Source: Staphylococcus phage vB_Sau_P68. Taken from it: DNA of 64,000 bases. A program made the translations under genes and the position numbers. Location: sequence record OL741057.1. One strand, written 5' to 3'. Shown here one piece after another: positions 1 through 59,496 of the stretch. The notes under the pieces are model-generated. The model had not been told where the DNA came from and ran no database searches. It worked only from the letters and a program-made list of their open reading frames with translations. Position 1 is the first letter of the stretch, and each line of letters opens with the position of its first letter.

Positions 1-2483
1 TTCTCTACTTCTACTCTTAATCCTCCAGGTATAGCTACCCCATCATAGTCTAACATAGATACCTTGGATGAATAGAATACAATATTACTTTGATAAGTTG
101 CAACCATATATCTTACAAGGTCTTTAATATTTGTTATTTCTTCTCCTGTGTATTCATTATAAAACTTACCATCAATATTAGTTTTATAGGGGTTATAGTT
201 AGCTGTAGGTGCTAGGAAAGGCTCTCCTGTTTTATTAAAAGTGTACTCTTTCTCTTTAGGTTTGTATTCTACAATAAGTACACCTTGTCTATTTGCATCT
301 GATTTAGTTCTACTTTTGTAAACAATAATACTAAATAGTCTATTATTATAAGAGAACGCACCTTCATGTTCAATCATATCGACAACTTTACCTTGTTTAG
401 TTAGGTAATCTCGTAACTCATAAGGATGGTACGTATAATCATTCATAATATCTCCACTAGGGCTTATCTCTTGTACCCCTTGTAAATGATAAGTATGTGG
501 TTCAATATCTCTAGTTGGGTTCCAGTTACCTCCTAGTGTCTGTACGATGGTATTATTTATAAGTGTCATACCTTGCTTCTTAGCTGAGTGGTTTGTAACT
601 CCCCCTAATAAATTACTTGACCATAATGTAGAATTAGAAGGGTTTATCCATAAGTACCCTGTTTTTTTACTGAAATCCTTGTTGAAAAATACTACCGTAT
701 CTCTCTGTAAAAACACACCTTTAGTTTGGTTATTGTATTCTACTCCCCATCCACTTTCTGTTCTAAAGAAATTCATGTATGCGTTTATATTATATTCTTC
801 TACAGGTTGTAACGTTGATTTCTCCTCAATATTTCTAGAATTAGTTACATCAAACTTACCTATATTATTATTGCTTGTTCTAGCATAGAGGTAAGTTTTA
901 GTTCCTTCTGTTTCTACATGAAGACCTTCTCCTCCGGTTGTTCCTGCGTAAAACATATTAACATACTTATAAAACTCATCATAGATAACAATTAGTCTTT
1001 TAGTACCACTCTCAGGAGCTGAATGTATAATATAGGTTTGACCGTTATTAATGGCAATACCTTGTGGGAAATAATACGTCACATTATCATTTGCTACTAT
1101 ACTATCATAGTCTTGGAATTTAAAGGGTAAATCTGCATGTATTTTTATGTCCCTAAACGTTGTATGTCTATACTTTTGTTCGGTATTTCTTATTGCAGGT
1201 AAATCAGTGTTAACAATTGTTTCAACCGAGCCCTGCTCCCCTGCTAGGTATTCATTTACCTCATCATAAAAATCTTTGAATGTTCTATCTCTAAAATCTT
1301 GGAATTGTGTTATAATACCTTCTGTTCTAGAACTTACAGCACTTATATTTGTTCCTAAGGTTTGAACATCTTTAGTAGCTTGGTTAGATGCTTCTATAGA
1401 CTCTTTAGTAGAGGCAATAAGTTCCTCTAGATTATCCTTCCCTACTCCTTCTAAGAGATAATTTATATCTTCCAGTTCTTTTTGTATCTCTTCTAAGTTT
1501 TTCATAGATTCTTCAATACTATCTCCTAAGTTTTCTAACATAGGCTTTTCATCTATATAAATACCATCATCTGTAAATTCAAATTTATGTTTATCATTTT
1601 TAATATAAAATTTATTATCTTCACTAATTCCATACTCAACCCAAACTTGAGCTTCATCTAACATTAAGTCATCGTCTTGTTTAATTACTCTATAAGACCC
1701 ATCACTCGACATTTCTTGTGTTGTTCTTTGTTGTGTTTCTGTATTTAATACTGATGTTCTAATATCCCCTCGTTCAGAAAGGAATAGAGTAGTTATATGG
1801 TTATCAGGTGTACCATCATCATAAAAAACGCCTTGATGTTTAAATAACATATTAGGTGCTTTTTGTATTCTAGGCTCAATCAATGTTTTATTACCATAAT
1901 ATGAAGTAAATAAATCTTGATATTCTGTACCAGTATAGAAGTCTGAAGCTTGTGGTTTCTCCTCTTCACCTGATGTCATAGAGAAGAATGACTTACCATT
2001 AAAAGTTTTAATACTTGTTCCTTCACCATCATCATACTTATAATTTAAAGATGGAAGTATCTCATATAGTGCACTACTATATTTATAAACACTATCCGTA
2101 TCAAATTTACCTCCGTCTAGGGGGTTAGTATTAATCATTTTATTTTGTTCATTATCACCGTACACACTTAGAATAATAGGACTGTTTATATCATCATTTA
2201 GAAATCCAATTAATACTACAGAACCTTCAGTAATTAAAGGTTTTGTTCCGAATACACTGCCTTCAGGTGTTCTACCAATAAAGGATTTAGGATAAGGTAC
2301 AGCTAAGCTACCATCATCTCCTATATGTCTACCTAGTGTTAAGTTATTAACTTTTACTTCAACTGATTGGTATTGATAATTTATTTTACTTACTGTAGCT
2401 AAAACTAGCCCTTTTACATTTAAGTCGTCTGAATCTACTCTTTTTAAACTTCTTCCCATGGAAGATTGGAATCTTACTACCAT
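1..2483 (-). CDS. tail/baseplate-associated structural protein, partial (start ATG at 2483; frame open past window edge, >826 codons). I recall the Kayvirus gene at this position as an ~848-aa glycerophosphodiesterase-family protein (tentative).
   Basis: Manual translation of minus strand from ATG 2483-2481 (MVVRFQSSMGRSLKRVDSDDLNVKG...) stays open to position 1. The start overlaps the upstream stop by 1 nt (TAATG). It lies in the tail lysin/baseplate cluster. Confidence 0.6.
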   Translation of the reverse strand, partial: MVVRFQSSMGRSLKRVDSDDLNVKGLVLATVSKINYQYQSVEVKVNNLTLGRHIGDDGSLAVPYPKSFIGRTPEGSVFGTKPLITEGSVVLIGFLNDDINSPIILSVYGDNEQNKMINTNPLDGGKFDTDSVYKYSSALYEILPSLNYKYDDGEGTSIKTFNGKSFFSMTSGEEEKPQASDFYTGTEYQDLFTSYYGNKTLIEPRIQKAPNMLFKHQGVFYDDGTPDNHITTLFLSERGDIRTSVLNTETQQRTTQEMSSDGSYRVIKQDDDLMLDEAQVWVEYGISEDNKFYIKNDKHKFEFTDDGIYIDEKPMLENLGDSIEESMKNLEEIQKELEDINYLLEGVGKDNLEELIASTKESIEASNQATKDVQTLGTNISAVSSRTEGIITQFQDFRDRTFKDFYDEVNEYLAGEQGSVETIVNTDLPAIRNTEQKYRHTTFRDIKIHADLPFKFQDYDSIVANDNVTYYFPQGIAINNGQTYIIHSAPESGTKRLIVIYDEFYKYVNMFYAGTTGGEGLHVETEGTKTYLYARTSNNNIGKFDVTNSRNIEEKSTLQPVEEYNINAYMNFFRTESGWGVEYNNQTKGVFLQRDTVVFFNKDFSKKTGYLWINPSNSTLWSSNLLGGVTNHSAKKQGMTLINNTIVQTLGGNWNPTRDIEPHTYHLQGVQEISPSGDIMNDYTYHPYELRDYLTKQGKVVDMIEHEGAFSYNNRLFSIIVYKSRTKSDANRQGVLIVEYKPKEKEYTFNKTGEPFLAPTANYNPYKTNIDGKFYNEYTGEEITNIKDLVRYMVATYQSNIVFYSSKVSMLDYDGVAIPGGLRVEVE

Positions 2484-12612: not shown

Positions 12613-13908
12613 TTATTTATAATTTTGTATATAGTCAATATAACTTATACTTTTTAGTGTATCACTTTTTTCCTGTTCTGTAGCTTCTCTAATATTGTAC
12701 CCTTTAACAGTGTTTCTTTTACCCTTAGCACAATCTACAATGGATGCTACATCTGAACTTATTCTTTTTGTCATCATATGCAAAGGCAACTTAATATCTT
12801 CTGAACCTTTAGTTGCTACATATACTTTAATTCTTTTATCTGTTATTGTTTTAGCTACTTCTGAAAAGTCTTCATCTTCATATCTCCAAAGATAACCACA
12901 TGATTGCTTTTTACTTCCTGATACACACCCTCTAATACTTGATGAAGGTAATCCTAAATTACTAAAGTATTCTTGTGCTTCTTTTAAAGTGTCAAATCTA
13001 ATTTCTTCTAGTGTCTTAATATTTAATCCTACTACAGGTTTAAATCTTTTCTTAACCCCTCTACGTTTCATTAAACCTTTAACATTACCAACACTCATAT
13101 TAAATTTATTTGCAGTTTCTTCTGAAGAGTGTTCTTTATAGAATTCTATAATCTCTTTTTCATTTTCTTTATATTTTGTAAACAGTTCTATTCTCTCAGT
13201 ATAATTTAAATTAATTTCTAAGAACGAACTTATAGTATTTAATATGTCCTTTTTGTCCTCATTAGGATAATAGATATATAGTAACTTTATGTTATTATCT
13301 TTACAGTATTTTTCTTTTAGTGAATCTAGCTCTTGTATCTTTTCTAAGGGCGTACTCCATGTTCCAGTAGCTTGTTTAATATGTTGTTGCCCCATATATT
13401 CAATAGCATATTTATTACCATTTAATTCTATATAAAAATCTAATCTTTGTGGTCTCTCTAATCCTGTGTAGATAGATTTTTCACATATAAATTCGATACC
13501 ATTTTCTTTAAGTATAGTCTGTATAATTCTCTCTCCGATACTTTTCATATGGTCTTGAGGACAATTATTATTAGTATTGTTCTCAAAACTATTCCATATA
13601 ACATCCCATTTATTCCCTTGCGGTGATAGTAGTAAACATCTCTTTGTTGATTGCAGATTTTCAGGGTAGTTTATAATACTATACCCTCTACTTTTAGCGT
13701 AAGAAGAAAAATATTTCTTTTTACCTTCTTCTGTAAGTTGTGTTAGTCTTATTTGTTTTAAGTTATTTAAGTTATTGTAGGACACGTAACATTCACAACC
13801 TTTAAATTTACCTTCCAAAACAACACCTAAATGTTTTGTATCTTTTGCTCTACCTCTATATTCTACGATTTTTATATTTTTTTCTTTTGCTAATTTTTCA
13901 ATTTCCAT
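12613..13908 (-). CDS. free-standing homing endonuclease-like protein: Vsr/EDxHD-like nuclease core plus two NUMOD-like DNA-binding motifs
   Basis: 431 aa. Central RLDFYIELNGNKYAIEYMGQQH matches the DUF559/Vsr-type PD-(D/E)XK motif and is also present in the 40945 ORF. Two helix-turn-helix repeats end in GN-K-G/GYLWRY (NUMOD-type). Own promoter (TTGACA-17-TATCAT) and RBS GAAGAGGTG. A strong hairpin terminator follows the stop. Confidence 0.7.
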   Translation of the reverse strand: MEIEKLAKEKNIKIVEYRGRAKDTKHLGVVLEGKFKGCECYVSYNNLNNLKQIRLTQLTEEGKKKYFSSYAKSRGYSIINYPENLQSTKRCLLLSPQGNKWDVIWNSFENNTNNNCPQDHMKSIGERIIQTILKENGIEFICEKSIYTGLERPQRLDFYIELNGNKYAIEYMGQQHIKQATGTWSTPLEKIQELDSLKEKYCKDNNIKLLYIYYPNEDKKDILNTISSFLEINLNYTERIELFTKYKENEKEIIEFYKEHSSEETANKFNMSVGNVKGLMKRRGVKKRFKPVVGLNIKTLEEIRFDTLKEAQEYFSNLGLPSSSIRGCVSGSKKQSCGYLWRYEDEDFSEVAKTITDKRIKVYVATKGSEDIKLPLHMMTKRISSDVASIVDCAKGKRNTVKGYNIREATEQEKSDTLKSISYIDYIQNYK

Positions 13909-13967
13909 ATTAAAACACCTCTTCTATTAAAGTATATACTAATGATACTATATCATTAGTCTTTTGT

Positions 13968-14000
13968 CAATAGAAAAGACCTAACTTTTATTGTTAGGTC
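13968..14000 (-). terminator. rho-independent terminator after tail tube exon 3
   Basis: Minus strand AGACCUAAC-AAUAAAA-GUUAGGUCU followed by UUUUCUAUU. Confidence 0.7.
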
Positions 14001-14023
14001 TATATTCTATAATAAATACGAAC

Positions 14024-14062
14024 TTATGTTCTGGCTTTATCTGATGCGGTCAAGTACGAAAA
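14024..14062 (-). CDS. tail tube protein, exon 3 (FSYLTASDKART*)
   Basis: Minus strand UUU UCG UAC UUG ACC GCA UCA GAU AAA GCC AGA ACA UAA, directly preceded by an intron-terminal G (AAAUCG|). It continues the tail tube reading frame. Confidence 0.8.
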   Translation of the reverse strand, partial: FSYLTASDKART

Positions 14063-14450
14063 CGATTTATTTATTTACAAACGCTACTTTGTAAACCTGT
14101 GTTATTTCACATGCACTAGCTTTCACTACGTGACTAGACTATTTGTTATCCCTAATTAGTAGGGCAAGGATTTTTCTTCTCCCAATAGCTTGGAGCTTTA
14201 CTCTCATCTTATAATGAGATAGTCGTTGAACGTTCCTCTTATGATTTACTATCACTTAGAGTATTCGATGCTATACACCCATTGTACTTCTCCTTAGGAT
14301 TTAACCTTAGAGTATCTCAATCATTTTTTCTACTTTCGTAACCTTCTAGTTTATTGTTTCCAATTCCTATGTGGTTGATTGAGCTTTAGAAGTTTCATAG
14401 CAGTTAACCCTTAATACTCACAGATTACTCTATGAGCAGAGTGTAAAATT
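14063..14450 (-). other. group I intron 2 in tail tube gene (ORF-less, ~385-388 nt)
   Basis: Minus-strand R element GUUCAACGACUA (plus 14222-14233) and S element AAAUAGUCUAG (plus 14137-14147) form P7 (GACUA/UAGUC). P-like AAUUGGAAAC and Q-like AAAUCCUAAGG, plus P8/P9 hairpins. Terminal G at 14063. The 5' boundary is ambiguous within 14448-14451. Confidence 0.75.
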
Positions 14451-14501
14451 CTCAATTTCCTCTGTCACTATTTCATTGGTCTGCCACGTCTCGTTATAGT
14501 T
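14451..14501 (-). CDS. tail tube protein, exon 2 (NYNETWQTNEIVTEEIE[N])
   Basis: Minus strand AAC UAU AAC GAG ACG UGG CAG ACC AAU GAA AUA GUG ACA GAG GAA AUU GAG, preceded by intron-1 terminal G at 14502. The exon may extend 3 nt (AAU) to 14448, which would satisfy the U-before-5'-splice-site rule. Confidence 0.8.
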
Positions 14502-14834
14502 CACTTATACCCTATCTCTCGATATATTTAAAGGGGTTAGACTGTCCCATGTCCCTTATTTATAAGGTGACTACCTATTACAGTCGTTGAAGCTTCCCAC
14601 TCTCGTAGGCTTGCCTGCGGATTTCCTATTAATTGAGTACTTAGGACATTAATAATGTGTCGCTAGTTATTAATGCTTTTATCTCACCGTATACTATCCA
14701 ATTAATTTTTTCTGATTTCTCAACATTCACGCTTACTTTTTCAAGTTACGTTGTAGTTTAATTGGCTTTAAGGTGTTCCCGCAATTTCAGGTATTATTCG
14801 ACTATACATTACTGTATAGAAGCAACAATTATTT
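14502..14834 (-). other. group I intron 1 in tail tube gene (ORF-less, 333 nt)
   Basis: Minus strand P element AAAUUGCGGGAAC (plus 14777-14789) pairs with Q element AAUCCGCAGGC (plus ~14604-14614) to give P4. R-like UUCAACGACUGU and S-like GGGACAGUCUAACC give a 6-bp P7 (GACUGU/ACAGUC). P2 hairpin CUAUACA-GUAA-UGUAUAG. The 5' splice site follows U (GCCAAU|) and the intron ends with G. Confidence 0.8.
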
Positions 14835-33826: not shown

Positions 33827-33945
33827 TTATTGAGTGACTTTAAGTAGTCACTTTTTTATTTGTCTTATTGTTGACTCCCTAACATTGTTAATTATATATT
33901 ATATATTAGTAATTAATAATAAGTAATAAATATATATATAACTAT

Positions 33946-33985
33946 AATAGGAGTACTCCTTATTTTCTAAATACGTACTTTTTCT
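33946..33985. repeat. direct repeat copy 1 containing palindrome AGGAGTACTCCT
   Basis: AATAGGAGTACTCCTTATTTTCTAAATACGTACTTTTTC; a second, near-identical copy lies 178 bp downstream. Confidence 0.7.
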
Positions 33986-34123
33986 TCTGTAAGTACTGAT
34001 ATAAAGGGATTTTACTTTAGATAAATATAAATTATTACTCAGAATAGTAATTTTTCTGTTCTTGTTAATTATAATTATATATTTAATATTATTAATTACT
34101 TATATCAGAATATAATTATATAT

Positions 34124-34162
34124 AATAGGAGTCCTCCTTATTTTCTAAATACGTACTTTTTC
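34124..34162. repeat. direct repeat copy 2 (AGGAGTCCTCCT core)
   Basis: AATAGGAGTCCTCCTTATTTTCTAAATACGTACTTTTTC. Confidence 0.7.
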
Positions 34163-34223
34163 TCTTGTAACCCTCGGTATTAAAGGATTCTTCAAAATAA
34201 TTTAAATTATTTTTAAAAAACTG

Positions 34224-34252
34224 TTGACTTATTTATCAATATAGTATATAGT
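34224..34252 (+). promoter_or_regulatory. sigma-A-type promoter (TTGACT-17-TATAGT)
   Basis: Consensus spacing; lies upstream of the 34291 gene. Confidence 0.6.
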
Positions 34253-34290
34253 TAAACTATCAAATAAAACAAGAAAAGGATTGATTAATT

Positions 34291-34509
34291 ATGAAAAGAC
34301 AAAAAATGTTTTACTCAAGTTTAATATGTAAAGAATGTGGTAATGTATTCAAAGTACCAAGAAAAAGAGCAAATAAAAGAGAAGAAGGTCATATCAAAGA
34401 TATATACTGTATCAAATGTTGTAAAACTACAAAACATGTAGAAGATAATCGTAGTGAAGCAGAAAGAAGATGGGATGCTATTCAGGAAGAATTAACAAAA
34501 GATAACTAA
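34291..34509 (+). CDS. small zinc-ribbon protein
   Basis: 72 aa; CKECGN...CIKCCKTTKH; RBS AAAAGGA. Confidence 0.6.
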   Translation: MKRQKMFYSSLICKECGNVFKVPRKRANKREEGHIKDIYCIKCCKTTKHVEDNRSEAERRWDAIQEELTKDN

Positions 34510-34535
34510 TATTTTAAAAAAAGTAGTAAATTAAC

Positions 34536-34564
34536 TTGACAAAGGTATCAGTATATGCTATAAT
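34536..34564 (+). promoter_or_regulatory. consensus sigma-A promoter (TTGACA-17-TATAAT)
   Basis: Perfect -35 and -10 with a 17-nt spacer. Confidence 0.7.
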
Positions 34565-34570
34565 GTAATT

Positions 34571-34722
34571 AACAATAAAACAAATACCTTACACATCACT
34601 GTTTTTTCTTACATTGTTTTCCAGTCCAAACAATAACAATGTTATTCTCTATTCTACTGAATAAACTAAACCCTCTATAAATAATATACTTGTAGGATTA
34701 ACGAGGGAATCCTACTTTTATA
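34571..34722 (+). ncRNA. candidate small RNA (~150 nt) between a consensus promoter and an intrinsic terminator
   Basis: No ORF. Internal hairpin CAUUGUU...AACAAUG. Terminator GUAGGAUU-AACGAGGG-AAUCCUAC followed by a U-run (34682-34722). Confidence 0.45.
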
Positions 34723-34741
34723 ATTTTTTTTTGAAATTAAC

Positions 34742-34770
34742 TTGACAAGTAATAAAAATTATGTTATAGT
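34742..34770 (+). promoter_or_regulatory. sigma-A promoter (TTGACA-17-TATAGT)
   Basis: Consensus -35 with 17-nt spacer; it drives transcription into the ORF-free region upstream of tRNA-Asp. Confidence 0.65.
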
Positions 34771-34776
34771 TAATAT

Positions 34777-35652
34777 ATAAATAATACAACTAAATATCTG
34801 AGCATAGTGACTGAATAATGATTTGGTAATCATAAGGTACAAGATAATCAAACGAATCAAAACTTATCGGAGTTATTTCGGTAAGATGAGTCGTCATTAG
34901 TATTGTTTAATACGATTGGTATACTTGGTACTTACTTATAAGGTCTGTAGAGTATGATAACAGCTAGGGTTTAATTTCTTCTTAGGGTCTTAGCGGAATC
35001 CTAGGAAGATACGCTATAACGACTTCCTGTAGTTGGAGCACAGAAATGTGTTTGATAATAGAGGTTATCAGTATGAGTAGCATAAATCTACAGGTTCAAA
35101 AGATATATATTTGATAAAAATAATTTGGTAATCAAATAAATTTACTTTTCTTCGACCATGTGAAAGTTACTAACTAATATGTTAGTATCACAATATCCTT
35201 TTGGATTGCGTGCGATGGACTTAAGGTAGCTCCTTAATAGAGTCAAGCGTAGTGATTAACTTAATAACAGGTCTTATAGGTAGGTTCCTCGTGAGACGGG
35301 TTATGCTTGGATATTTAGTTGCATTATATCAGAATGTGACTATAAATATTTTCCTCTTTATAGTTTATTATTAACAATTATCAGTTTCCTCCTTTGATTG
35401 ATAATTAAAAAGAATCTACAAGGAGTATATTTTCACTCTTTCATGTATTTATTGTTCACACTCCTTTATGAACCAATAACTTACTCCTTGTAGATTATAC
35501 ATATTTCCTTCTTAGGTACCAATTACCACGCTTTGTTCATTTCACCTCCTTTCACTTAATATATAGTTGTTATGAGTGGTAATAATCGTTGCTTCGAACC
35601 TAAGAGAAAACCTGCTATACATTAAGGTAAGGTTAGGGTATAGCATTTATTT
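34777..35652 (+). ncRNA. candidate large structured non-coding RNA or tRNA leader (~880 nt, ORF-free)
   Basis: No ORF of 60 aa or more on either strand. Long-range 13-bp stem UCUACAAGGAGUA/UACUCCUUGUAGA. Many hairpins, elevated GC, and repeated AUUUGGUAAUCA motifs. A hairpin (GCUAUAC...GUAUAGC) lies just before the tRNA. Confidence 0.3.
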
Positions 35653-35653
35653 T

Positions 35654-35727
35654 GGCTCATTGGTGTAACTGGTTAACACACTGCCCTGTCACGGCAGAGA
35701 GTACGAGTTCGAGTCTCGTATGAGTCG
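35654..35727 (+). tRNA. tRNA-Asp (anticodon GUC)
   Basis: Cloverleaf: acceptor GGCUCAU/AUGAGUC, D-arm GUGU-AACUGGUUAA-CACA, anticodon arm CUGCC-CUGUCAC-GGCAG, T-arm ACGAG-UUCGAGU-CUCGU. No encoded CCA. Confidence 0.85.
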
Positions 35728-35767
35728 TAAACTAATATACTTTACATATTTAAAAGGAGAGATATAA

Positions 35768-35953
35768 ATGGCATCAGCAAAACAAATATACTATACAGAG
35801 AGTTTAGTAGGTAAAGCAGTAATCAATAATAAAGTTTCCAATAAAGAAGAAGTTTGGGATAAATTAGAGCTACTACCTGAAACTAAATTAGAAGACTTAG
35901 ACAATAAACAAATGTCAGAAGTTATTAAAAAATTAAATCAAATAAACGAGTAA
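35768..35953 (+). CDS. hypothetical protein
   Basis: 61 aa; RBS AAAGGAGAG. Confidence 0.55.
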   Translation: MASAKQIYYTESLVGKAVINNKVSNKEEVWDKLELLPETKLEDLDNKQMSEVIKKLNQINE

Positions 35954-36037
35954 GTGTTAAATTAATATAGTTAAACATAACCGACCAACTGTTATATTAT
36001 TGTTAGAAATAAATATAATAGAAAGGTCGGTTTTTTA

Positions 36038-36541
36038 ATGACTAATGAAGCTAAACAACCTAAAGTTGTTGGAGGAATAAACCTTAGTACACGAACTAAG
36101 AGTAAAACATTTTGGGTAGCAATTATATCGGCAGTAGCAGTATTTGCTAATCAAATTACAGGTGCTTTTGGTTTAGATTATTCAGCTCAAATTGAGCAAG
36201 GTGTCAATATCATAGGTTCTATACTAACATTATTAGCAGGTTTAGGTATTATTGTTGATAATAATACTAAAGGTCTTAAAGACAGTGATATTGTTCAAAC
36301 AGACTATACAAAACCTCGTGATAGTAAAGACCCTAATGAATTTGTTCAATGGCAAGCAAATGCAAACACAGCTAGTACTTTTGAATTAGACAACTACGAA
36401 AACAATGCAGAGCCTGATACAGATGATAGTGATGAAGTACCTGCTATTGAAGATGAAATTGATGGCGGTTCAGCACCTTCTCAAGACGAAGAAGATACCG
36501 AAGAACACGGTAAAGTATTTGCGGAGGAGGAAGTTAAGTAA
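36038..36541 (+). CDS. holin
   Basis: 167 aa. Two transmembrane helices followed by an acidic C-terminal tail. Immediately upstream of, and overlapping, the endolysin start (ATGA-type). The size matches what I recall for the Kayvirus holin. Confidence 0.8.
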
Positions 36542-37175
36542 TGGCTAAGACGCAAGCAGAAATAAATAAACGTTTAGACGCATATGCAAAAGGAACAGTA
36601 GATAGCCCTTATAGAGTTAAGAAAGCAACAAGTTATGACCCTTCATTTGGTGTAATGGAGGCAGGAGCAATTGATGTAGATAAATATTATCACGCTCAGT
36701 GTCAAGACCTTATTACAGACTATGTATTATGGTTAACAGATAATAAAGTTAGAACTTGGGGTAATGCTAAAGACCAAATCAAACAAAATTATGGTACTGG
36801 ATTTAAAATACACCAAAATAAACCTTCTACAGTACCTAAAAAAGGTTGGATTGCAGTATTTACTTCAGGTAGCTATACACAGTGGGGTCACATAGGTATT
36901 GTATATGATGGAGGTAATACTTCAACATTTACTATTTTAGAGCAAAACTGGAACGGTTACGCTAATAAAAAACCTACAAAACGTGTAGATAACTATTACG
37001 GATTAACTCATTTCATTGAAATACCTGTAAAAGCAGGAACTACTGTTAAAAAAGAAACAGCTAAGAAAAGTGCAAGTAAAACACCTGCACCTAAAAAGAA
37101 AGCAACATTAAAAGTTTCTAAGAATCATATTAACTATACAATGGATAAACGAGGTAAAAAACCTGAAGGAATGGT
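36541..37175 (+). CDS. lysK: endolysin exon 1 (CHAP domain), LysK-like
   Basis: Reads [12 protein letters not shown]...[24 protein letters not shown]..., a CHAP Cys/His pattern. The frame ends in an intron-encoded stop right after ...KKPEGMV. Confidence 0.85.
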
Positions 37176-38132
37176 GTAAAAAATAATCTATAAAATAACT
37201 TGTAATTCTATTAGTTCTATGGTATAATACTTATATAATGATGTAGGAGGTATTATACATGGAAGAAATTTGGAAAGACATTCAAGGATATGAAGGTAAA
37301 TATAAAGTTAGTAACCTAGGAAATGTTAAATCAATAAAACGAACTGTTAAACACGCAGGAAGTAATACTAGAACTTTTCCTGAAACTTTATTGAAACCTA
37401 ATAAAGTAGCATTTGATTATCTTCAAGTAACTCTATATAAAGAAGGTAAAAGAAAATGTAGGTACGTTCATAATTTAGTAATGGAAGCTTTTGTAGGAGA
37501 AAAGGAAAAAGGTTTTGAGACAAATCATAAAAATGAAATAAAAAGTGATAATAGGCTTGAAAACTTAGAATACATTACTGCAAAAGAAAATAATAATTAT
37601 GGGACACGAATACAAAGAATGTCTGAAAAAAATACTAATGGGAAAAGAAGTAAGAAAATTAAAGGTACTCATTTAAAAACTAAAGTTGAAATTATTTTAC
37701 CTTCTATTGAAGAAGCAAAAAGACAAGGATATGGTAATCATATATCTGAAGTTTGTAATGGTAAAAGAAATTCATGTAAAGGTTATAAATGGGAATTTAT
37801 AGATTAAGCACTGCATATATCGTGAGGTATATGTACTAAAAACATAAATTGCTTTGAAGAACCTTAGAGCCTTGATACCACAATAAAGCTGAAAAGACTT
37901 TATGAGGGTTTAACAAGTTCAAGGATTGGTTTGTTTAGCATCACTACTCCTAAGTGATAGAAAAATCATAAGGAGAATGTTCAACGACTAGAGGATTGCC
38001 TCCTCGTAGGGTTCAAGTGAACTCGAAAGAAGAACTATCTCACAGAGATAGAGAGAAATAGTCTGCTCACGTCCTGTAATGGGAGTGCTAGGTAATACCT
38101 AGAGCTAGATTAACGAACTAGTGAAACATAAG
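37176..38132 (+). mobile_element. group I intron in endolysin gene carrying an HNH homing endonuclease ORF
   Basis: 957 nt. 5' splice site after U (AUGGU|), terminal G at 38132, then exon 2 (G AUA CAC AAC GAU = V-I-H-N-D). Downstream of the ORF: R element GUUCAACGACUA (~38029) and S element AAAUAGUCUGC (~38086) form P7. Internal extended -10 promoter at 37200-37228. Confidence 0.8.
37259..37807 (+). CDS. intron-encoded HNH homing endonuclease (I-KsaI-like)
   Basis: 182 aa. Motifs HKNEIKSDNRLENLEYITAKENN (HNH) and C-terminal NSCKGYKWEF. RBS GGAGG. Confidence 0.8.
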   Translation: MEEIWKDIQGYEGKYKVSNLGNVKSIKRTVKHAGSNTRTFPETLLKPNKVAFDYLQVTLYKEGKRKCRYVHNLVMEAFVGEKEKGFETNHKNEIKSDNRLENLEYITAKENNNYGTRIQRMSEKNTNGKRSKKIKGTHLKTKVEIILPSIEEAKRQGYGNHISEVCNGKRNSCKGYKWEFID

Positions 38133-38988
38133 GATACACAACGATGCGGGTCGTTCTTCAGGACAACAATACGAGAATTCATTAGCTAAAGCAGGTTATG
38201 CTAGATATGCTAATGGTATTGCTCATTACTACGGTTCTGAGGGTTATGTATGGGAAGCAATAGATGCTAAGAATCAAATTGCTTGGCATACAGGAGATGG
38301 GACAGGAGCAAACTCAGGTAACTTTAGATTTGCAGGTATTGAAGTCTGTCAATCAATGAGTGCTAGTGATGCTCAATTCCTTAAAAATGAACAAGCAGTA
38401 TTCCAATTTACAGCAGAAAAATTTAAAGAGTGGGGTCTTACTCCTAACCGTAAAACTGTAAGATTGCATATGGAATTCGTTCCTACTGCATGTCCTCACC
38501 GTTCTATGGTTCTTCATACAGGATTTAATCCAGTAACACAAGGAAGACCATCACAAGCAATAATGAATAAACTTAAAGATTATTTCATTAAACAAATTAA
38601 AAACTACATGAGTAACGGAACTTCAAGTTCTACTGTAGTTAAAAAAGGTAAAACAAGTAGTGCAAGTACACCGGCAACTAGACCAGTTACAGGTTCTTGG
38701 AAAAAGAACCAATACGGAACTTGGTATAAACCGGAAAACGCAACATTTGTTAATGGTAACCAACCTATAGTAACTAGAATAGGTTCTCCATTCTTAAATG
38801 CTCCAGTAGGAGGTAACTTACCGGCAGGAGCTACAATTGTATATGACGAAGTTTGTATCCAAGCAGGTCATATTTGGATTGGTTATAACGCTTATAATGG
38901 TAACAGAGTATATTGCCCTGTTAGAACTTGTCAAGGTGTTCCACCTTCACATGTACCTGGAGTTGCCTGGGGGACATTCAAGAGTTAA
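38133..38988 (+). CDS. lysK: endolysin exon 2 (amidase_2 + SH3b domains)
   Basis: Frame open from 38125 ([16 protein letters not shown]...). Amidase motifs (AWHTGDG...[12 protein letters not shown]) and SH3b C-terminus (...[27 protein letters not shown]...VAWGTFKS). Joined exons give ~496 aa. Confidence 0.85.
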
Positions 38989-56738: not shown

Positions 56739-56922
56739 GAGAATACACTCTGAATTATTATATGATATTATAGGTAAGCATATACAAGAAGAAGAAAAGA
56801 TTACACCTTATATAGAGGCTATATACGTAGATAAGATGAATGTTATCGTAGTAGAGTATACCTTTTATAATGAAGACGGTGTAAGAATGTTAGGACAATA
56901 TCCGATAGGAGAGGTTATGTAA
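56728..56922 (+). CDS. hypothetical protein
   Basis: 64-aa ORF. Confidence 0.55.
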   Translation: MRDRRIHSELLYDIIGKHIQEEEKITPYIEAIYVDKMNVIVVEYTFYNEDGVRMLGQYPIGEVM

Positions 56923-57141
56923 ATGAAAAAAATTATTAATTTTTTAGTAGATTATAATATTAGTTTTAGTTATAAAGACGGTAGTTTAAATGTATTAGGT
57001 AATGCTTATTTAGTAGATAGATACGGTACACAAGATTATGAAATTGTAGGTAACTATGAACATATTACCGGGGTATTCTCTTACCAAACAGAAGAAGAGG
57101 TCATAGATAAACTTAAAAATCTTATAGGTGTTCAGGAGTAA
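56923..57141 (+). CDS. hypothetical protein
   Basis: 72-aa ORF. Confidence 0.6.
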   Translation: MKKIINFLVDYNISFSYKDGSLNVLGNAYLVDRYGTQDYEIVGNYEHITGVFSYQTEEEVIDKLKNLIGVQE

Positions 57142-57166
57142 TAATAGATTAAATTGATAAATTAAC

Positions 57167-57195
57167 TTGACATTAAGTATTATTTATGATATACT
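57167..57195 (+). promoter_or_regulatory. sigma-A promoter (TTGACA-17-TATACT) driving an ORF-free transcript
   Basis: Consensus hexamers immediately after the 56923 gene. Confidence 0.7.
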
Positions 57196-57201
57196 ATTAG
57201 T

Positions 57202-57770
57202 ATAGTAGTTAACTAAAGCCTCTTATATAATGCTAAACACAGTTAGCCTTTTTTAACCTTATAATGAGAGTAAGAGCCTAACTATATGGGTACTTTGAAA
57301 TCATTATATTTTACCTATGGTATAGGTGAACCGTACCTACTTTCCAAATAGGGATAACTCAAAATCAGGTAGCAACTTGAGAGTGAAATAAGTCGGACAG
57401 CTTTATATTCAGAAGAAGTGTCAGAGGATATAAAGTAATGGCTTGAGATACCGAGCCTTGATTACTAGGTATCAGACACTTGGCGTGTAACCTAAGTTTA
57501 TGGTTAGATGGGTTGCAACATAAGGAAGCTGATTTCCTCTGTATAGCTTGGAGGAACTCCATAAGACAGCCAAACCACTGTATATTCAGTTACTATGGCA
57601 AAGCTATATGAGGTAAACTCTTATATAGCTCCCTGTTATAGTACATACACGCAGTGACGAGCGTTTCAACATCAAGGATACTCATACAATTGTCGTAAAA
57701 TAATATTAACCGTAATCTAAGTACGGGAGCCTTGATGGGACACCTATTTTAATTAATAGGTGTTTTTTTT
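57202..57770 (+). ncRNA. candidate ~570-nt structured non-coding RNA with its own promoter and intrinsic terminator
   Basis: No ORF on the plus strand. GC-elevated. Many hairpins (e.g. AGCUAUAUGAG...CUCUUAUAUAGCU; CCAUA...UAUGG; GGAAGCUGAUUUCC). Repeated GAGCCUUGAU motif. Terminator ACACCTATT-TTAATTAAT-AGGTGT followed by TTTTTTTT at 57740-57770. Confidence 0.5.
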
Positions 57771-57771
57771 A

Positions 57772-57800
57772 TTGACATTTATAAATAAGTATGGTAAGAT
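57772..57800 (+). promoter_or_regulatory. sigma-A promoter (TTGACA-17-TAAGAT)
   Basis: Upstream of the phosphatase gene. Confidence 0.6.
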
Positions 57801-57827
57801 AGTTATATACAATAAGGAGGAGATTAA

Positions 57828-58532
57828 ATGGCTATATATGTAGTACCTGATATTCATGGGGAATATGAAAAACTAATAACAATTATGGATAAAATTAATA
57901 AAGAAAGAAGACCTGAAGATACCATTGTATTCTTGGGTGACTATATTGATAGAGGTAAAAAGTCTAAAGATGTTGTAAACTACGTGTTTGACTTAGTATC
58001 TAACGATGATAATGTAGTAGCTTTATTAGGAAATCATGATGATGAATTTTATAGGGTCATGGAGAAGGTAGATTATTTAGATATCTATAGCATTGAATGG
58101 TTATCAAGATATTGTATAGAAACACTTGATTCTTATGGTGTAAGTACTTCAACTTTAAAATATGAAAGTGTAGAAGATAACATAAGAAATAATTATGATT
58201 CTATTAAAGGAGAACTAAAGAAATTTAAAGAATCAGAAGATTATAGAAAATTTAAAATACTTATGGTTAATTGCAGAAAGTATTATAAAGAAGGTAAGTA
58301 TACATTTTCTCACTCAGGAGGAGTCAGTTGGAAACCTATAGAAGAACAGACAATAGACCAATTAATATGGTCTAGGGATTTTCAACCTAGAAAAGATGGA
58401 TTTATTCACGTATGTGGTCATACACCTACGAGTAGTGGGGAAGTAGAAGAACATAATGATATGTTGTTATGTGACGTAGGTGCTGTATTTAGGGATATAG
58501 ATTTACCACTTATTAAATTGGAGGAGTATTAA
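57828..58532 (+). CDS. Ser/Thr protein phosphatase (calcineurin-like metallophosphoesterase)
   Basis: 234 aa. VVPDIHGEY...FLGDYIDRG...LLGNHD...GH are the signature metallophosphatase motifs. Confidence 0.8.
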   Translation: MAIYVVPDIHGEYEKLITIMDKINKERRPEDTIVFLGDYIDRGKKSKDVVNYVFDLVSNDDNVVALLGNHDDEFYRVMEKVDYLDIYSIEWLSRYCIETLDSYGVSTSTLKYESVEDNIRNNYDSIKGELKKFKESEDYRKFKILMVNCRKYYKEGKYTFSHSGGVSWKPIEEQTIDQLIWSRDFQPRKDGFIHVCGHTPTSSGEVEEHNDMLLCDVGAVFRDIDLPLIKLEEY

Positions 58533-58534
58533 AT

Positions 58535-58987
58535 ATGGAAACAGTAACTTTAGGGAGATTACTAGAACTATTCAGTAATAAAGAAAACATAGAAAAACTT
58601 AATAAAGATAATTTTATAGCTTTAGAGCCTGAATATCGTCATGATAAAGAGAGTAAAGGTCATACTATACACTTTAACTTTAACACACCTAAATTTGAAA
58701 ACTTTTTTACAATTATTGTCAAACTTAACTCTTTTGAAGGCTATGGTAATGATGATATTGAACTTTGTCTGTTAGCAGGTCATTTAAGAGGGTATGTAAG
58801 TAAACGTATACCAAATACTTATGATGATTTCTTTAAAACCCTTATTCAATTAAGAGATGAGTATATCGAGTATAAGGGAGAGTTCAAAGAATCAAATAAA
58901 GAAGAATGTGATAAAGCAAATCAAGCAAAGATAGAGAACCAAAAACAAGTCGATAAAATGGCTAATACTTTAGATAAATATTTATAA
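58535..58987 (+). CDS. hypothetical protein
   Basis: 150-aa ORF. Confidence 0.7.
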   Translation: METVTLGRLLELFSNKENIEKLNKDNFIALEPEYRHDKESKGHTIHFNFNTPKFENFFTIIVKLNSFEGYGNDDIELCLLAGHLRGYVSKRIPNTYDDFFKTLIQLRDEYIEYKGEFKESNKEECDKANQAKIENQKQVDKMANTLDKYL

Positions 58988-59001
58988 GGGGATAATAACA
59001 A

Positions 59002-59496
59002 ATGAGAGAAACAAGCAGATATATTATGTTTTGGGGTCAGGAAGATATTTACTCTAACTTTTACCCTATAAAGTTTAAACATAAAGGTCGAACATTTAAT
59101 AATTCAGAACAAGCTTTTATGTGGCGTAAGGCTCAATATTTTAAAGACTGGCAGATAGCAGGAGAAATATTAAATGCTAAGAATCCGAAACATGCTAAAA
59201 GTTTAGGACGTAAAGTTCGTAATTTTAATGAAGAGCAATGGAATAAGGTAAGATATGACATTATGGTAGAAGTGGTTAAAGATAAGTTTATGACTACACA
59301 CTTAAAGAAAAAAATACTCGATACAGATTTACGTAAAGACTTCGTAGAGGCATCACCTTATGATAAAATATGGGGAGTGGGACTTAAAGCAAATGACCCT
59401 AAGATATTAGAACAAAGCAACTGGAAAGGTCAGAATTTATTAGGAAAAGTAATGGAAGATGTTCGAGTACATTGTGTCTATAATAAATATAAATAA
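59002..59496 (+). CDS. NADAR/YbiA-like (DUF1768) domain protein
   Basis: 164 aa. FWGQ...SNFYP...FNNSEQAFMWRKA...LGRKVRNF...W...EASPYDKIWGVG matches the YbiA/NADAR signature. Confidence 0.75.
   Translation: MRETSRYIMFWGQEDIYSNFYPIKFKHKGRTFNNSEQAFMWRKAQYFKDWQIAGEILNAKNPKHAKSLGRKVRNFNEEQWNKVRYDIMVEVVKDKFMTTHLKKKILDTDLRKDFVEASPYDKIWGVGLKANDPKILEQSNWKGQNLLGKVMEDVRVHCVYNKYK

What the first reader, a model, noticed from the sequence alone, without database searches (positions are those of the whole stretch)
57167..57770. Stand-alone ~570-nt structured RNA candidate with its own consensus promoter and intrinsic terminator
A TTGACA-17-TATACT promoter is followed by 570 nt with no plus-strand ORF. GC content is elevated. 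There are multiple stable hairpins and repeated GAGCCUUGAU motifs. A strong terminator (ACACCUAUU...AAUAGGUGU plus U8) sits just before the independently promoted phosphatase gene. That is the signature of a dedicated ncRNA gene, not a 5' UTR. No hallmark of group I or group II introns was seen.
Basis: seen in the sequence. Interest (0 to 1): 0.65.

Follow-up and report, generated by a model that had tools for sequence, protein, structure and literature searches.

The report
Modular phage non-coding RNA gene
This is a real non-coding RNA gene of about 570 nt in a Staphylococcus phage K-like virus: a rearranged version of the very abundant but functionally unexplained "lncRNA1" of phage K, and its 3' end is a known RNA motif (DUF3800-I) present here without its usual partner gene.

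Summary
A near-consensus extended -10 promoter (57167-57195) is followed by about 570 nt with no conserved ORF, G+C of 0.39-0.40 against about 0.28 in the flanks, stable hairpins and a strong intrinsic terminator (57737-57770).

The window is a Twortvirinae phage, 99-99.8% identical to vB_SauM_JDYN. The locus is the counterpart of phage K "lncRNA1". Three RNA-seq studies found that RNA among the most abundant transcripts of infection, with unknown function.

The 3' 130 nt match Rfam DUF3800-I (45.0 bits, gathering score 44.2). Four of eight pairs of its main helix show compensatory changes among related phages.

The RNA is mosaic:
- The 5' leader carries a TEG147-like sarcin-ricin hairpin and is shared with phage K.
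- The 3' DUF3800-I domain is also shared with phage K.
- Phage K's tRNA-Met and about 470 nt of other sequence are replaced by two modules (B, C) found in only 15 GenBank phages.

The RNA modules are much better conserved than the neighbouring phosphatase gene.

In prophages, canonical DUF3800-I is a compact sRNA next to a DUF3800 gene. This phage window has no such gene.

Verdict: a genuine stand-alone ncRNA and a new variant of a known kind. It most likely acts in trans as an abundant protein-binding RNA; that mechanism is inferred, not shown.

The parts
57167..57195 (+). Sigma-70-type early promoter, TTGACA-17-TATACT with a TG extension. The predicted transcription start is about 57202-57204.
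   Evidence: 11 of 12 matches, best in the region. The sequence is shared with the promoter of the phage K tRNA-Met/lncRNA1 transcription unit. Use of that promoter in phage K and 515A1 is reported in PMC9241854 and PMC7698491.
57203..57318 (+). Module A, the conserved 5' leader. It has a short hairpin (57232-57247) followed by U6, then a TEG147-like hairpin (57255-57314) with an AGUA/GAA sarcin-ricin-type internal loop.
   Evidence: The Rfam TEG147 model RF03535 scores 44.5 bits, below the gathering score of 56.1. The module is 96.5-100% identical in the phages that carry the full module A, including phage K. SA11 has an 85.8% identical copy and Twort a 49-nt stretch covering the hairpin. One helix pair changes G.U to C-G in SA11, and PSU5 has a second copy with a different distal stem but the same internal loop. 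JAR3D lists a sarcin-ricin match for RF03535 (PMC13085918). The module's own folding z-score is only -0.14.
57318..57585 (+). Module B, a 268-nt multi-helix domain closed by a long-range helix (57348-57353 with 57575-57581). It has no Rfam family. It takes the place of part of phage K's tRNA-Met plus about 470 nt of other sequence.
   Evidence: Found in only 15 GenBank phage records, at 91-100% identity. RNAalifold gives 72 pairs with 98.6% of cells paired, 2 compensatory pairs and many G.U to Watson-Crick changes; the covariation score is reached by 2 of 500 shuffles. No ORF is conserved. B is 92-97% identical where the phosphatase gene is 72-81%. It occurs in other contexts: after an HNH endonuclease gene in Fi4S2, after a tRNA-like element in SAP23 and 184DA, and without module D in Golestan101-M.
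57586..57649 (+). Module C, a single long hairpin (57591-57643).
   Evidence: Folding z-score -4.06, 0 of 200 shuffles as good. Present or absent independently of B: the window, Fi4S2, PG35, OPT-SC01 and Golestan-100 have it, PSU5, O1-102, SAP23 and 184DA lack it, and WV has C without B.
57642..57774 (+). Module D, the DUF3800-I-type 3' domain. It comprises P1 (57650-57663), the main helix (57670-57677 with 57730-57737), the conserved hairpin UUAACCGUAAUCUAAGUACGG (57706-57726) and the terminator hairpin.
   Evidence: Rfam RF02969 scores 45.0 bits against a gathering score of 44.2, covering model positions 1-115 in full. E = 1.3e-3 for the whole window and 2e-5 for the 1-kb search. The ViennaRNA minimum-free-energy fold reproduces the family architecture with z = -4.53. 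Across 9 distinct Twortvirinae versions, 4 of 8 pairs of the main helix are compensatory and 0 of 500 shuffles reach the covariation score. O1-102 and SAP23 have a G.U pair that would be a mismatch on the other strand.
57737..57770 (+). Intrinsic terminator (GGGACACCUAUU / AAUAGGUGUUUU followed by a U-run). It is also the last helix of the DUF3800-I model.
   Evidence: The same terminator sequence is annotated in phage K.
57772..57800 (+). Context only: the separate promoter (TTGACA-17-TAAGAT with TG) of the downstream metallophosphatase gene (57828-58532).

Best explanation
The region is a stand-alone gene for a non-coding RNA of about 568 nt, on the + strand from about 57203 to about 57770, in a phage K-like Staphylococcus myovirus. 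It is this lineage's allele of Kayvirus 'lncRNA1'.

Shown or directly supported:
- It has a near-consensus host-type early promoter and an intrinsic terminator.
- It encodes no conserved protein.
- It is built from independently folding modules: a conserved 5' leader with a sarcin-ricin-type hairpin (A), two rare modules (B, C), and a conserved 3' domain (D) that is a DUF3800-I-type RNA ending in the terminator.
- The two ends are constant across most phage K-like (Kayvirus-type) versions of the locus, and the middle is exchanged by recombination. Phage K carries tRNA-Met and other modules there.

Inferred:
- The RNA is made by host RNA polymerase from the first minutes of infection and accumulates to high levels, as its phage K homologue does.
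- It acts in trans through its folded domains by binding or sequestering a protein of the host or of a resident prophage. It probably does not act by base-pairing or in cis.
- The DUF3800-I domain is the most likely effector part, because in prophages that RNA is coupled to a DUF3800 (RNase H-fold) gene that this window lacks (the rest of the genome was checked only by a single-query tblastn).

My probabilities: real stand-alone ncRNA homologous to lncRNA1, about 0.9. Trans-acting protein-binding or sequestering RNA, about 0.35. Specifically a mimic of the RNA partner of DUF3800 proteins, about 0.1.
For: - Promoter, terminator and the separate downstream promoter.
- Identity of the phage and synteny with phage K.
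- Published abundant transcription of the homologous phage K and 515A1 locus. It accounts for 2.2% of the normalised counts (TMM-CPM). lncRNA1 plus lncRNA2 give 27% of reads, are detectable from 2 min, and start from the promoter upstream of tRNA-Met.
- DUF3800-I match above the gathering score in the window and in Fi4S2 (45.5 bits); phage K (43.4) and seven other phages (36.0-42.8 bits) fall just below it.
- Compensatory changes in the main helix of D, and a strand-specific G.U pair.
- Structure-preserving substitutions in B.
- No conserved ORF, and a 2-nt indel in SAP23 and 184DA.
- RNA modules more conserved than the flanking gene.
- Modules recur in different combinations with sharp, shared breakpoints.
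- Canonical DUF3800-I is a compact sRNA directly downstream of a DUF3800 gene in prophages.
- No DUF3800 gene in the window, and none in any Staphylococcus phage by tblastn.
Against: - No expression data exist for this phage; transcription is inferred from signals and from phage K.
- The DUF3800-I score is only 0.8 bit above the threshold.
- Comparative power for modules B and C is low. There are 10 sequences at 91-100% identity, only 2 compensatory pairs, and the structure was derived from the same sequences.
- Module A does not fold better than shuffled sequence (z = -0.14).
- No protein partner is known.
- No DUF3800 gene or canonical DUF3800-I was found in Staphylococcus in the limited searches possible, which weakens the mimic version.
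- High conservation could partly reflect recent horizontal exchange rather than purifying selection.
Confidence: 0.75

Rival explanations
1. It is a ROOL/GOLLD-like 'ornate' RNA that works as an RNA-only multimeric assembly (a cage or scaffold) rather than by binding a protein.
For: It is large, abundant (in phage K), phage-borne and sits at a tRNA-associated locus. The authors of the phage K and 515A1 studies draw the same analogy. ROOL, GOLLD and OLE form homo-oligomers (PMC12286853).
Against: No ROOL or GOLLD model matches at E <= 10. The review's statement of sequence similarity is therefore not borne out here. Free exchange, gain and loss of modules between phages fits poorly with one co-evolved quaternary architecture.
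Confidence: 0.1
2. It is a mostly functionless remnant: the leader and trailer of a former tRNA-Met transcription unit, filled with recombination debris that happens to be transcribed.
For: In phage K, Twort, Metroid, MCE-2014 and phiSA12 the same leader precedes tRNA-Met. This window has lost the tRNA. The centre is highly mosaic.
Against: Modules A, B and D are 90-100% identical between phages whose adjacent phosphatase genes are only 72-86% identical. Substitutions preserve pairing on the + strand. G+C is 11-12 points above the genome background. The phage K homologue is among the most abundant RNAs of infection.
Confidence: 0.08
3. It is a base-pairing regulator whose exposed loops, such as GAGCCUUGAU, pair with host or phage mRNAs.
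For: The 10-mer GAGCCTTGAT occurs 3 times in the window against 0.09 expected, and one copy lies in a predicted 15-nt hairpin loop of B. Finstrlova et al. proposed regulatory roles for phage K ncRNAs.
Against: That loop varies (GAGCC, AAGUC, GAGUC) without matching change in the other copies. No target was found for the phage K lncRNAs (Table 1, 'n.a.'). A multi-domain RNA of about 570 nt with conserved internal loops and junctions is unlike typical seed-based sRNAs.
Confidence: 0.08
4. It is a cis-acting leader or attenuator that controls the downstream phosphatase gene by regulated read-through of the terminator.
For: It lies immediately upstream of the phosphatase gene on the same strand. 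Two U-tailed hairpins in module A look like weak attenuators.
Against: The terminator has 12 pairs and U8, and the phosphatase has its own promoter with a TG extension directly after it. In phage K two other genes and a second terminator lie between the RNA and the phosphatase. In Fi4S2 the downstream gene is different. Weinberg et al. note that DUF3800-I is rarely in 5' UTRs.
Confidence: 0.04
5. It is a DNA-level element (a recombination or homing hot spot, or a replication signal) and the RNA features are incidental.
For: The locus is extremely mosaic. An HNH endonuclease gene sits next to the B-C-D block in Fi4S2. The identical terminator sequence is repeated in phage K around two genes that are absent here.
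Against: G.U pairs and one-sided G.U to Watson-Crick changes are tolerated only on the + strand as RNA. The + strand folds much better than the - strand. There is a strong promoter and terminator, and abundant RNA in phage K.
Confidence: 0.04

Closest known systems
Kayvirus lncRNA1. Called 'lncRNA1 region' in vB_SauM-515A1 (Kornienko 2020, PMC7698491). Finstrlova 2022 (PMC9241854) labels it lnc001 in Table 1 but lnc002 in the text. Called lncRNA1, 13,688-14,215, in PMC11598898.
   Same: Same locus and strand logic. The promoter plus 5' leader is the same (159 nt, 96.9% identical) and so is the 3' DUF3800-I-type domain plus terminator (about 87%). Both are long and non-coding, and the function of lncRNA1 is unknown.
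   Different: The middle is not homologous. Phage K has tRNA-Met (possibly preceded by a tRNA-like remnant), a weakly rli62-like module and two further modules. The window has modules B and C instead and no tRNA. In phage K the abundant species starts after the tRNA, which suggests tRNA processing; there is no such processing signal here. In phage K two extra genes and a second copy of the terminator follow. No expression data exist for this variant.
DUF3800-I RNA motif (Rfam RF02969; Weinberg et al. 2017, PMC5737381)
   Same: Full-length match to the covariance model above the gathering score. The hairpin loop UUAA(G/C)CGUAnUnUAAGUACG(C/G) is nearly identical. The main helix is supported by covariation. 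The terminator serves as the last helix.
   Different: Canonical examples are compact sRNAs of about 115 nt with their own promoter directly upstream, lying just after a DUF3800 gene in prophages of Enterococcus, lactobacilli and Clostridia. Here the motif is the 3' end of a transcript of about 570 nt. It carries a 15-nt insertion, the closing pair of the conserved hairpin is flipped (G-C to C-G), and no DUF3800 gene is present. In some relatives a further module of about 320 nt separates the core from the terminator.
TEG147 (Rfam RF03535), a 60-nt S. aureus sRNA
   Same: The hairpin at 57255-57314 aligns end to end with the model and has the same AUGAGAGUA...GAAAUCAU sarcin-ricin-type internal loop.
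   Different: The score of 44.5 bits is below the gathering score of 56.1. The distal stem does not pair as in the model. Here the hairpin is the leader of a longer transcript rather than a free-standing sRNA.
ROOL and GOLLD large phage-associated ncRNAs
   Same: Large, structured, phage-encoded, near tRNA genes in relatives, highly expressed in relatives, function unknown.
   Different: No sequence or structure match. This RNA is a string of exchangeable modules rather than one conserved architecture.
Pseudo-ToxI of phage phiTE, an RNA mimic of a type III antitoxin (Blower et al. 2012; recalled from my own knowledge, not checked here)
   Same: A lytic phage carries an orphan copy of an RNA that is normally encoded next to a bacterial nuclease-type gene.
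   Different: It is not established that DUF3800 plus DUF3800-I is a toxin-antitoxin or defence pair. No DUF3800 system has been shown in the hosts. This is purely an analogy for the most novel reading.

Membership tests
DUF3800-I RNA (RF02969) | Covariance-model score at or above the Rfam gathering score over the whole model | tested here: met
   45.0 bits against 44.2, model positions 1-115 of 115. E = 1.3e-3 for the window-wide search and 2e-5 for the 1-kb search. The margin is small. Homologues in other phages score 36.0-45.5 bits.
DUF3800-I RNA (RF02969) | Conserved hairpin with a UAA-containing loop (UUUAAGCGuacUgUAAguaCGC) | tested here: met
   UUAACCGUAAUCUAAGUACGG at 57706-57726. It differs from canonical prophage copies essentially by a G-C to C-G flip of the closing pair.
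DUF3800-I RNA (RF02969) | Main enclosing helix supported by covariation | tested here: met
   Four of 8 pairs have changes on both sides among 9 distinct Twortvirinae sequences, 99% of cells are paired, and 0 of 500 shuffles reach the covariation score.
DUF3800-I RNA (RF02969) | Rho-independent terminator at the 3' end | tested here: met
DUF3800-I RNA (RF02969) | Nearby gene encoding a DUF3800 (PF12686) protein | tested here: not met
   A DUF3800 gene was detected by tblastn in 30 of the 33 non-Twortvirinae IMG/VR loci, immediately beside the motif in the one inspected directly (L025). In the window, tblastn gives E >= 2, Pfam finds no DUF3800 in ORFs of 90 aa or more between 28.8 and 63.7 kb, and none in the 8 closest ORFs. 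A tblastn search of all GenBank phages hits only 3 Streptococcus phages. Limits: a single query was used, the window holds only 64 kb of a genome of about 144 kb, and the structural-gene half was not scanned with Pfam.
DUF3800-I RNA (RF02969) | Compact stand-alone sRNA with its own promoter directly upstream (seen in the canonical loci fetched here) | tested here: not met
   Several canonical loci show a promoter-like TTGACA (or CTTGACA)-17-TATACT/TATAAT a few nt before P1. Here P1 is preceded by about 450 nt of the same transcript, and no promoter with 9 of 12 matches or better lies upstream of 57650.
Kayvirus lncRNA1 | Same genomic locus, promoter/leader and 3' end as the phage K and 515A1 RNA | tested here: met
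   The coordinates of the published RNA map onto L001 at about 1876-2403.
Kayvirus lncRNA1 | Homologous RNA body | tested here: not met
   The central 330 nt (57318-57650) have no blastn match in phage K or in most Kayviruses; only 15 records match.
Kayvirus lncRNA1 | Abundant transcript during infection | not testable with these tools
   No RNA-seq data exist for this phage. This is shown only for phage K and 515A1.
ROOL / GOLLD | Match to the family covariance model | tested here: not met
   No hit at E <= 10 in 56900-57900, and none at the gathering score in the window.
TEG147 (RF03535) | Score at or above the gathering score | tested here: not met
   44.5 bits against 56.1 (E = 1.6e-7 in the 1-kb search). 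The similarity is real but sub-threshold, so I call it TEG147-like only.
tRNA or tRNA-like element | Cloverleaf detected by ARAGORN or the Rfam tRNA model | tested here: not met
   None in the region, in contrast to phage K, Metroid, MCE-2014, phiSA12 and Twort.
Group I / group II intron | Match to intron models; interruption of a host gene | tested here: not met
   No Rfam hit. The element lies between complete genes and has its own promoter and terminator.

The most novel reading that the evidence does not exclude
The Twortvirinae lncRNA1 locus may be an expression cassette for exchangeable counter-defence RNA modules. In this reading the orphan DUF3800-I domain mimics the RNA partner of prophage-encoded DUF3800 (RNase H-fold) proteins. 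The phage would then neutralise or hijack such systems, much as pseudo-ToxI of phage phiTE neutralises ToxN. Modules B and C, the sarcin-ricin hairpin and the tRNAs of other alleles would be further decoys against other host factors. Rapid shuffling of modules between phages of different Staphylococcus species would be the trace of an arms race.
Probability: 0.1. Interest if true: 0.85.

Novelty: new variant of a known kind. Interest (0 to 1): 0.5.

Why it matters
Kayviruses are the main therapeutic phages against Staphylococcus aureus. Their two lncRNAs make up as much as a quarter of all reads in infected cells, and nobody knows what they do.

This analysis adds three points that the three Kayvirus transcriptome papers and the 2023 review I read do not mention:
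- The constant 3' domain of lncRNA1 is a DUF3800-I RNA. This ties an unexplained phage RNA to an unexplained, widespread RNA-protein association. DUF3800 proteins have an RNase H fold and are linked to mobile elements, retrons and CRISPR loci.
- The phage carries that RNA without a DUF3800 gene in this window (the rest of the genome was checked only by a single-query tblastn).
- The RNA is a constant-ends, variable-middle mosaic, and this window carries a rare tRNA-less allele.

The natural allelic series gives ready-made module swaps for testing function. It also suggests concrete experiments: binding to DUF3800 proteins, and host-range effects.

Tried and rejected
- Protein-coding reading. 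The 43-aa + strand ORF and the 65-aa - strand ORF are not conserved. Six of 10 homologues interrupt the 65-aa ORF, two have no ORF of 25 aa or more, and there is a 2-nt indel. The small minus-strand CDSs annotated over this RNA in Fi4S2 and 184DA are probably mis-annotations.
- GAGCCUUGAU as a conserved long-range or alternative pairing. Rejected: the module B copy varies independently of the module D helix.
- ROOL, GOLLD, 6S, intron, riboswitch and any other Rfam family for modules B and C. Nothing at E <= 10 apart from noise.
- More distant homologues of module B, to gain covariation power. I found 0 hits in IMG/VR, 0 in metagenomes, 0 in plasmids and only 15 close relatives in GenBank phages. 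A metagenome scan for the phage-type D core also returned 0.
- A DUF3800 gene in the phage or host lineage. None in the window, in Staphylococcus phages, in Staphylococcus plasmids or in a Staphylococcus species-representative genome with the canonical RNA core pattern. These searches used one protein query and one strict DNA pattern, so absence is not proven.
- An internal promoter just before module D, as in the canonical sRNAs. Only a -10-like TATAGT with a 3 of 6 match at -35 is present, and the scan does not report it.
- PADLOC classification of the canonical DUF3800 protein. Only a weak 16.9-bit hit to candidate PDC-S51, which is inconclusive.
- Supplementary text of Weinberg 2017 on DUF3800-I. 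It is not held in the library.
Full report
**1. What is in the sequence**

The window is a Staphylococcus Twortvirinae (phage K-like) genome. The 731 nt around the finding are 99.0% identical to vB_SauM_JDYN, and the 616-nt core is 99.8% identical.

At 57167-57195 there is a TTGACA-17-TATACT promoter with a TG extension. It scores 11 of 12 and is the best site in a 4-kb scan. At 57737-57766 there is a 12-pair hairpin followed by eight T residues. Immediately after it, at 57772-57800, a second promoter serves the metallophosphatase gene at 57828-58532.

Between the two signals the longest + strand ORF is 43 aa. G+C rises to 0.39-0.40 against 0.21-0.30 in the flanks. The + strand folds with z = -4.32 and the - strand with z = -2.10.

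**2. It is not coding**

I aligned ten homologues of the central part from different phages. No ORF of 25 aa or more is shared. The 65-aa minus-strand ORF is broken in six of them. SAP23 and 184DA have no ORF at all and carry a 2-nt deletion.

**3. Known pieces**

Rfam at gathering thresholds finds one family in the region: DUF3800-I (RF02969) at 57642-57774. It scores 45.0 bits against a gathering score of 44.2 and covers the whole model, including the terminator. ViennaRNA independently predicts the same architecture with z = -4.53.

Among nine distinct versions of this domain from related phages, the main helix reads as follows:
- AUCAAGG/CCUUGAU in the window
- GACAGAG/CUCUGUC in phage K
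- AACAGAG/CUCUGUU in OPT-SC01
- AACAGGG/CUCUGUU in O1-102 and SAP23

Four of its eight pairs change on both sides. No shuffle out of 500 reaches the observed covariation score. The G.U pair in O1-102 and SAP23 is allowed only on the + strand.

The hairpin at 57255-57314 aligns end to end with the S. aureus sRNA TEG147 (RF03535), but at 44.5 bits it stays below the gathering score of 56.1. It shares the AGUA/GAA sarcin-ricin-type internal loop for which JAR3D reports a match in that family (PMC13085918). The same loop recurs in phage PSU5 on a different distal stem, and SA11 shows a G.U to C-G change in the stem.

Nothing else in Rfam matches at E <= 10: no ROOL, GOLLD, intron or tRNA.

**4. 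It is the counterpart of a published RNA**

In phage K the same promoter and leader (159 nt, 96.9% identical) and the same 3' domain plus terminator (about 87%) bracket a non-coding stretch of about 950 nt containing tRNA-Met. That stretch is the 'lncRNA1' of three RNA-seq studies:
- In phage K it maps to 13,595-14,229 on the minus strand (PMC9241854).
- In phage K it also maps to 13,688-14,215. lncRNA1 and lncRNA2 together give 27% of reads and are detectable from 2 min (PMC11598898).

The function is unknown in all three. None of these papers mentions Rfam or DUF3800 in its main text. A review states sequence similarity to ROOL and GOLLD; my Rfam scan does not support that for this locus.

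**5. Mosaic architecture**

BLAST of the window unit and the phage K unit against 18 related loci gives sharp, recurring breakpoints. I define these modules:
- A, 57203-57318: the leader.
- B, 57318-57585.
- C, 57586-57649.
- D, 57642-57774: DUF3800-I plus the terminator.

A and D are present in most of the 287 matching phage records. B occurs in only 15 records, at 91-100% identity.

B occurs in several contexts:
- directly after the promoter in OPT-SC01
- after a tRNA-like element in SAP23 and 184DA
- after an HNH endonuclease gene in Fi4S2
- without D in Golestan101-M

C is present or absent independently of B. Several phages carry an extra module of about 320 nt between the D core and the terminator. 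Only JDYN shares the exact A-B-C-D arrangement of the window.

RNAalifold on B gives 72 pairs, 98.6% of them paired across sequences. There are two compensatory pairs and many G.U to Watson-Crick changes. A long-range helix closes the module at its borders, and the covariation score is reached by 2 of 500 shuffles. This is suggestive but shallow, and the structure was derived from the same sequences.

The RNA modules are far better conserved than the neighbouring gene. For example, against OPT-SC01, B is 95% and D 90% identical while the phosphatase gene is 72%. Against Stab23, A is 100% identical while the phosphatase gene is 72%.

**6. Comparison with canonical DUF3800-I**

A pattern for the conserved hairpin retrieved 35 IMG/VR loci, two of them Twortvirinae, and 20 bacterial contigs. 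The bacterial contigs include Enterococcus, Lentilactobacillus, Lachnospiraceae and Oscillospiraceae, among other taxa, but no Staphylococcus.

In the canonical loci the RNA is compact, and several show a promoter-like TTGACA-17-TATACT or TATAAT site a few nucleotides before P1. tblastn detected a DUF3800 gene in 30 of the 33 non-Twortvirinae loci, immediately beside the motif in the one inspected directly, L025 (PF12686, E = 9.7e-14). In the Enterococcus-type prophage L025 the order is endolysin (Amidase_2), then DUF3800, then the RNA.

The phage window has no DUF3800 gene. tblastn gives E >= 2, and Pfam finds none in ORFs between 28.8 and 63.7 kb or in the eight nearest ORFs. The same protein query finds no Staphylococcus phage or plasmid.

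The phage domain therefore passes the sequence and structure tests for DUF3800-I. It fails the two contextual features: a partner gene, and a compact stand-alone unit. I describe it as an orphan DUF3800-I-type domain fused to the 3' end of a longer RNA.

**7. How it most likely works**

Shown: the expression signals, the non-coding nature, the modular structured anatomy, the homology of the ends to phage K lncRNA1, and the DUF3800-I fold.

Inferred from phage K: early, very abundant transcription by host RNA polymerase.

Inferred from anatomy: action in trans through folded domains. The reasons are as follows:
- Conserved nucleotides sit in internal loops and junctions.
- Helices co-vary.
- The loops do not co-vary with any candidate target.
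- No target was found for the phage K RNAs.

The constant ends may also serve expression and stability, with the middle as exchangeable cargo.

The most specific idea is that the orphan DUF3800-I domain mimics the RNA partner of DUF3800 RNase H-fold proteins. The literature links such proteins to mobile elements, retrons and CRISPR loci. This idea rests on analogy only. It is weakened by my failure to find such systems in staphylococci in limited searches, and I give it about 0.1.

**8. Rivals**

I considered five rival explanations and rate each at 0.1 or below, for the reasons given in the rival section:
- a ROOL-like self-assembling RNA
- a functionless tRNA-operon remnant
- a base-pairing sRNA
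- a cis-acting leader of the phosphatase gene
- a DNA-level recombination element

**9. Verdict**

The kind is already known (Kayvirus lncRNA1; Rfam DUF3800-I). This allele is a rare, tRNA-less variant with an undescribed 330-nt middle. The link between lncRNA1 and DUF3800-I, and the mosaic design of the locus, do not appear in the papers I could read.

Novelty: new variant of a known kind. Interest: 0.5.

Noticed in passing
window 33855-36054, with the core at about 34,790-35,330 and tRNA-Asp at 35653-35728: This is the homologue of phage K 'lncRNA2', the most abundant phage K transcript, at about 90% identity to phage K 37,604-39,500. It lies upstream of tRNA-Asp. Phage K's tRNA-Phe and tRNA-Trp (about 280 nt) are missing here. 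No Rfam family reaches its gathering score there.
   Followed up: partly
window 36541-38988: The endolysin gene is split. A CHAP-domain ORF (36541-37179) is followed by a NUMOD4/HNH endonuclease ORF (37259-37807), about 550 nt of non-coding sequence, and then an SH3_5-containing ORF (38356-38988). This looks like the known intron-with-homing-endonuclease arrangement of phage K lysK, although no Rfam intron model reached its gathering score. The third GAGCCTTGAT copy (37867) lies in the non-coding part.
   Followed up: partly
L001 (phage K) 2425-2454 and 3398-3426: The same terminator sequence (ACACCTATT...AATAGGTGT) occurs twice in phage K. It brackets two genes (gp032, gp031) that are absent from the window. 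This suggests gain or loss by recombination between terminator repeats.
   Followed up: no
L005 1120-1440, L007 1364-1684, L010 1381-1701, L015 1666-1986, L018: In OPT-SC01, KMSP1, O1-102, Stab23 and WV an extra non-coding module of about 320 nt (GGCTGTTTTTCGTGGTACCCGTCCCG...) is inserted between the DUF3800-I core and its terminator. It has no Rfam hit at E <= 0.05.
   Followed up: no
L006 (PSU5) 997-1039: A second sarcin-ricin-type hairpin (AUGAGAGUA...GAAAUCAU) has a completely different distal stem. This suggests that the internal loop is the selected feature of the TEG147-like element.
   Followed up: partly
L003 (Fi4S2) 1194-1364, L007 746-871, L001 about 2030-2120: Another recurring module of these loci gives weak, sub-threshold matches to the Listeria sRNA rli62 (37.9 and 31.4 bits against a gathering score of 83). 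In Fi4S2 the match overlaps the 3' end of a NUMOD4/HNH endonuclease gene and extends into the sequence downstream.
   Followed up: no
window 57365-57562 (-); L003 1613-1862 (-); L009 773-1433 (-): GenBank records of Fi4S2 and 184DA annotate several small minus-strand 'hypothetical proteins' on top of this RNA. These ORFs are not conserved between phages and are probably mis-annotations.
   Followed up: yes
window 57828-59496: The genes just downstream encode a calcineurin-like Ser/Thr phosphatase (57828-58532) and a NADAR-domain protein (59002-59496). Both are the kind of early accessory gene often linked to countering host responses. I did not follow up this context.
   Followed up: no
window 889-2398 and 13924-14828: Two further stretches of 1.5 kb and 0.9 kb have no ORF of 70 codons or more on either strand. 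I did not examine them.
   Followed up: no
window 57416-57422 and 57475-57481: An invariant 7-bp complementarity (AAGUGUC/GACACUU) lies between the loop of one supported helix of module B and a downstream segment. It could form a pseudoknot. Neither side varies in the alignment, so it cannot be tested.
   Followed up: partly
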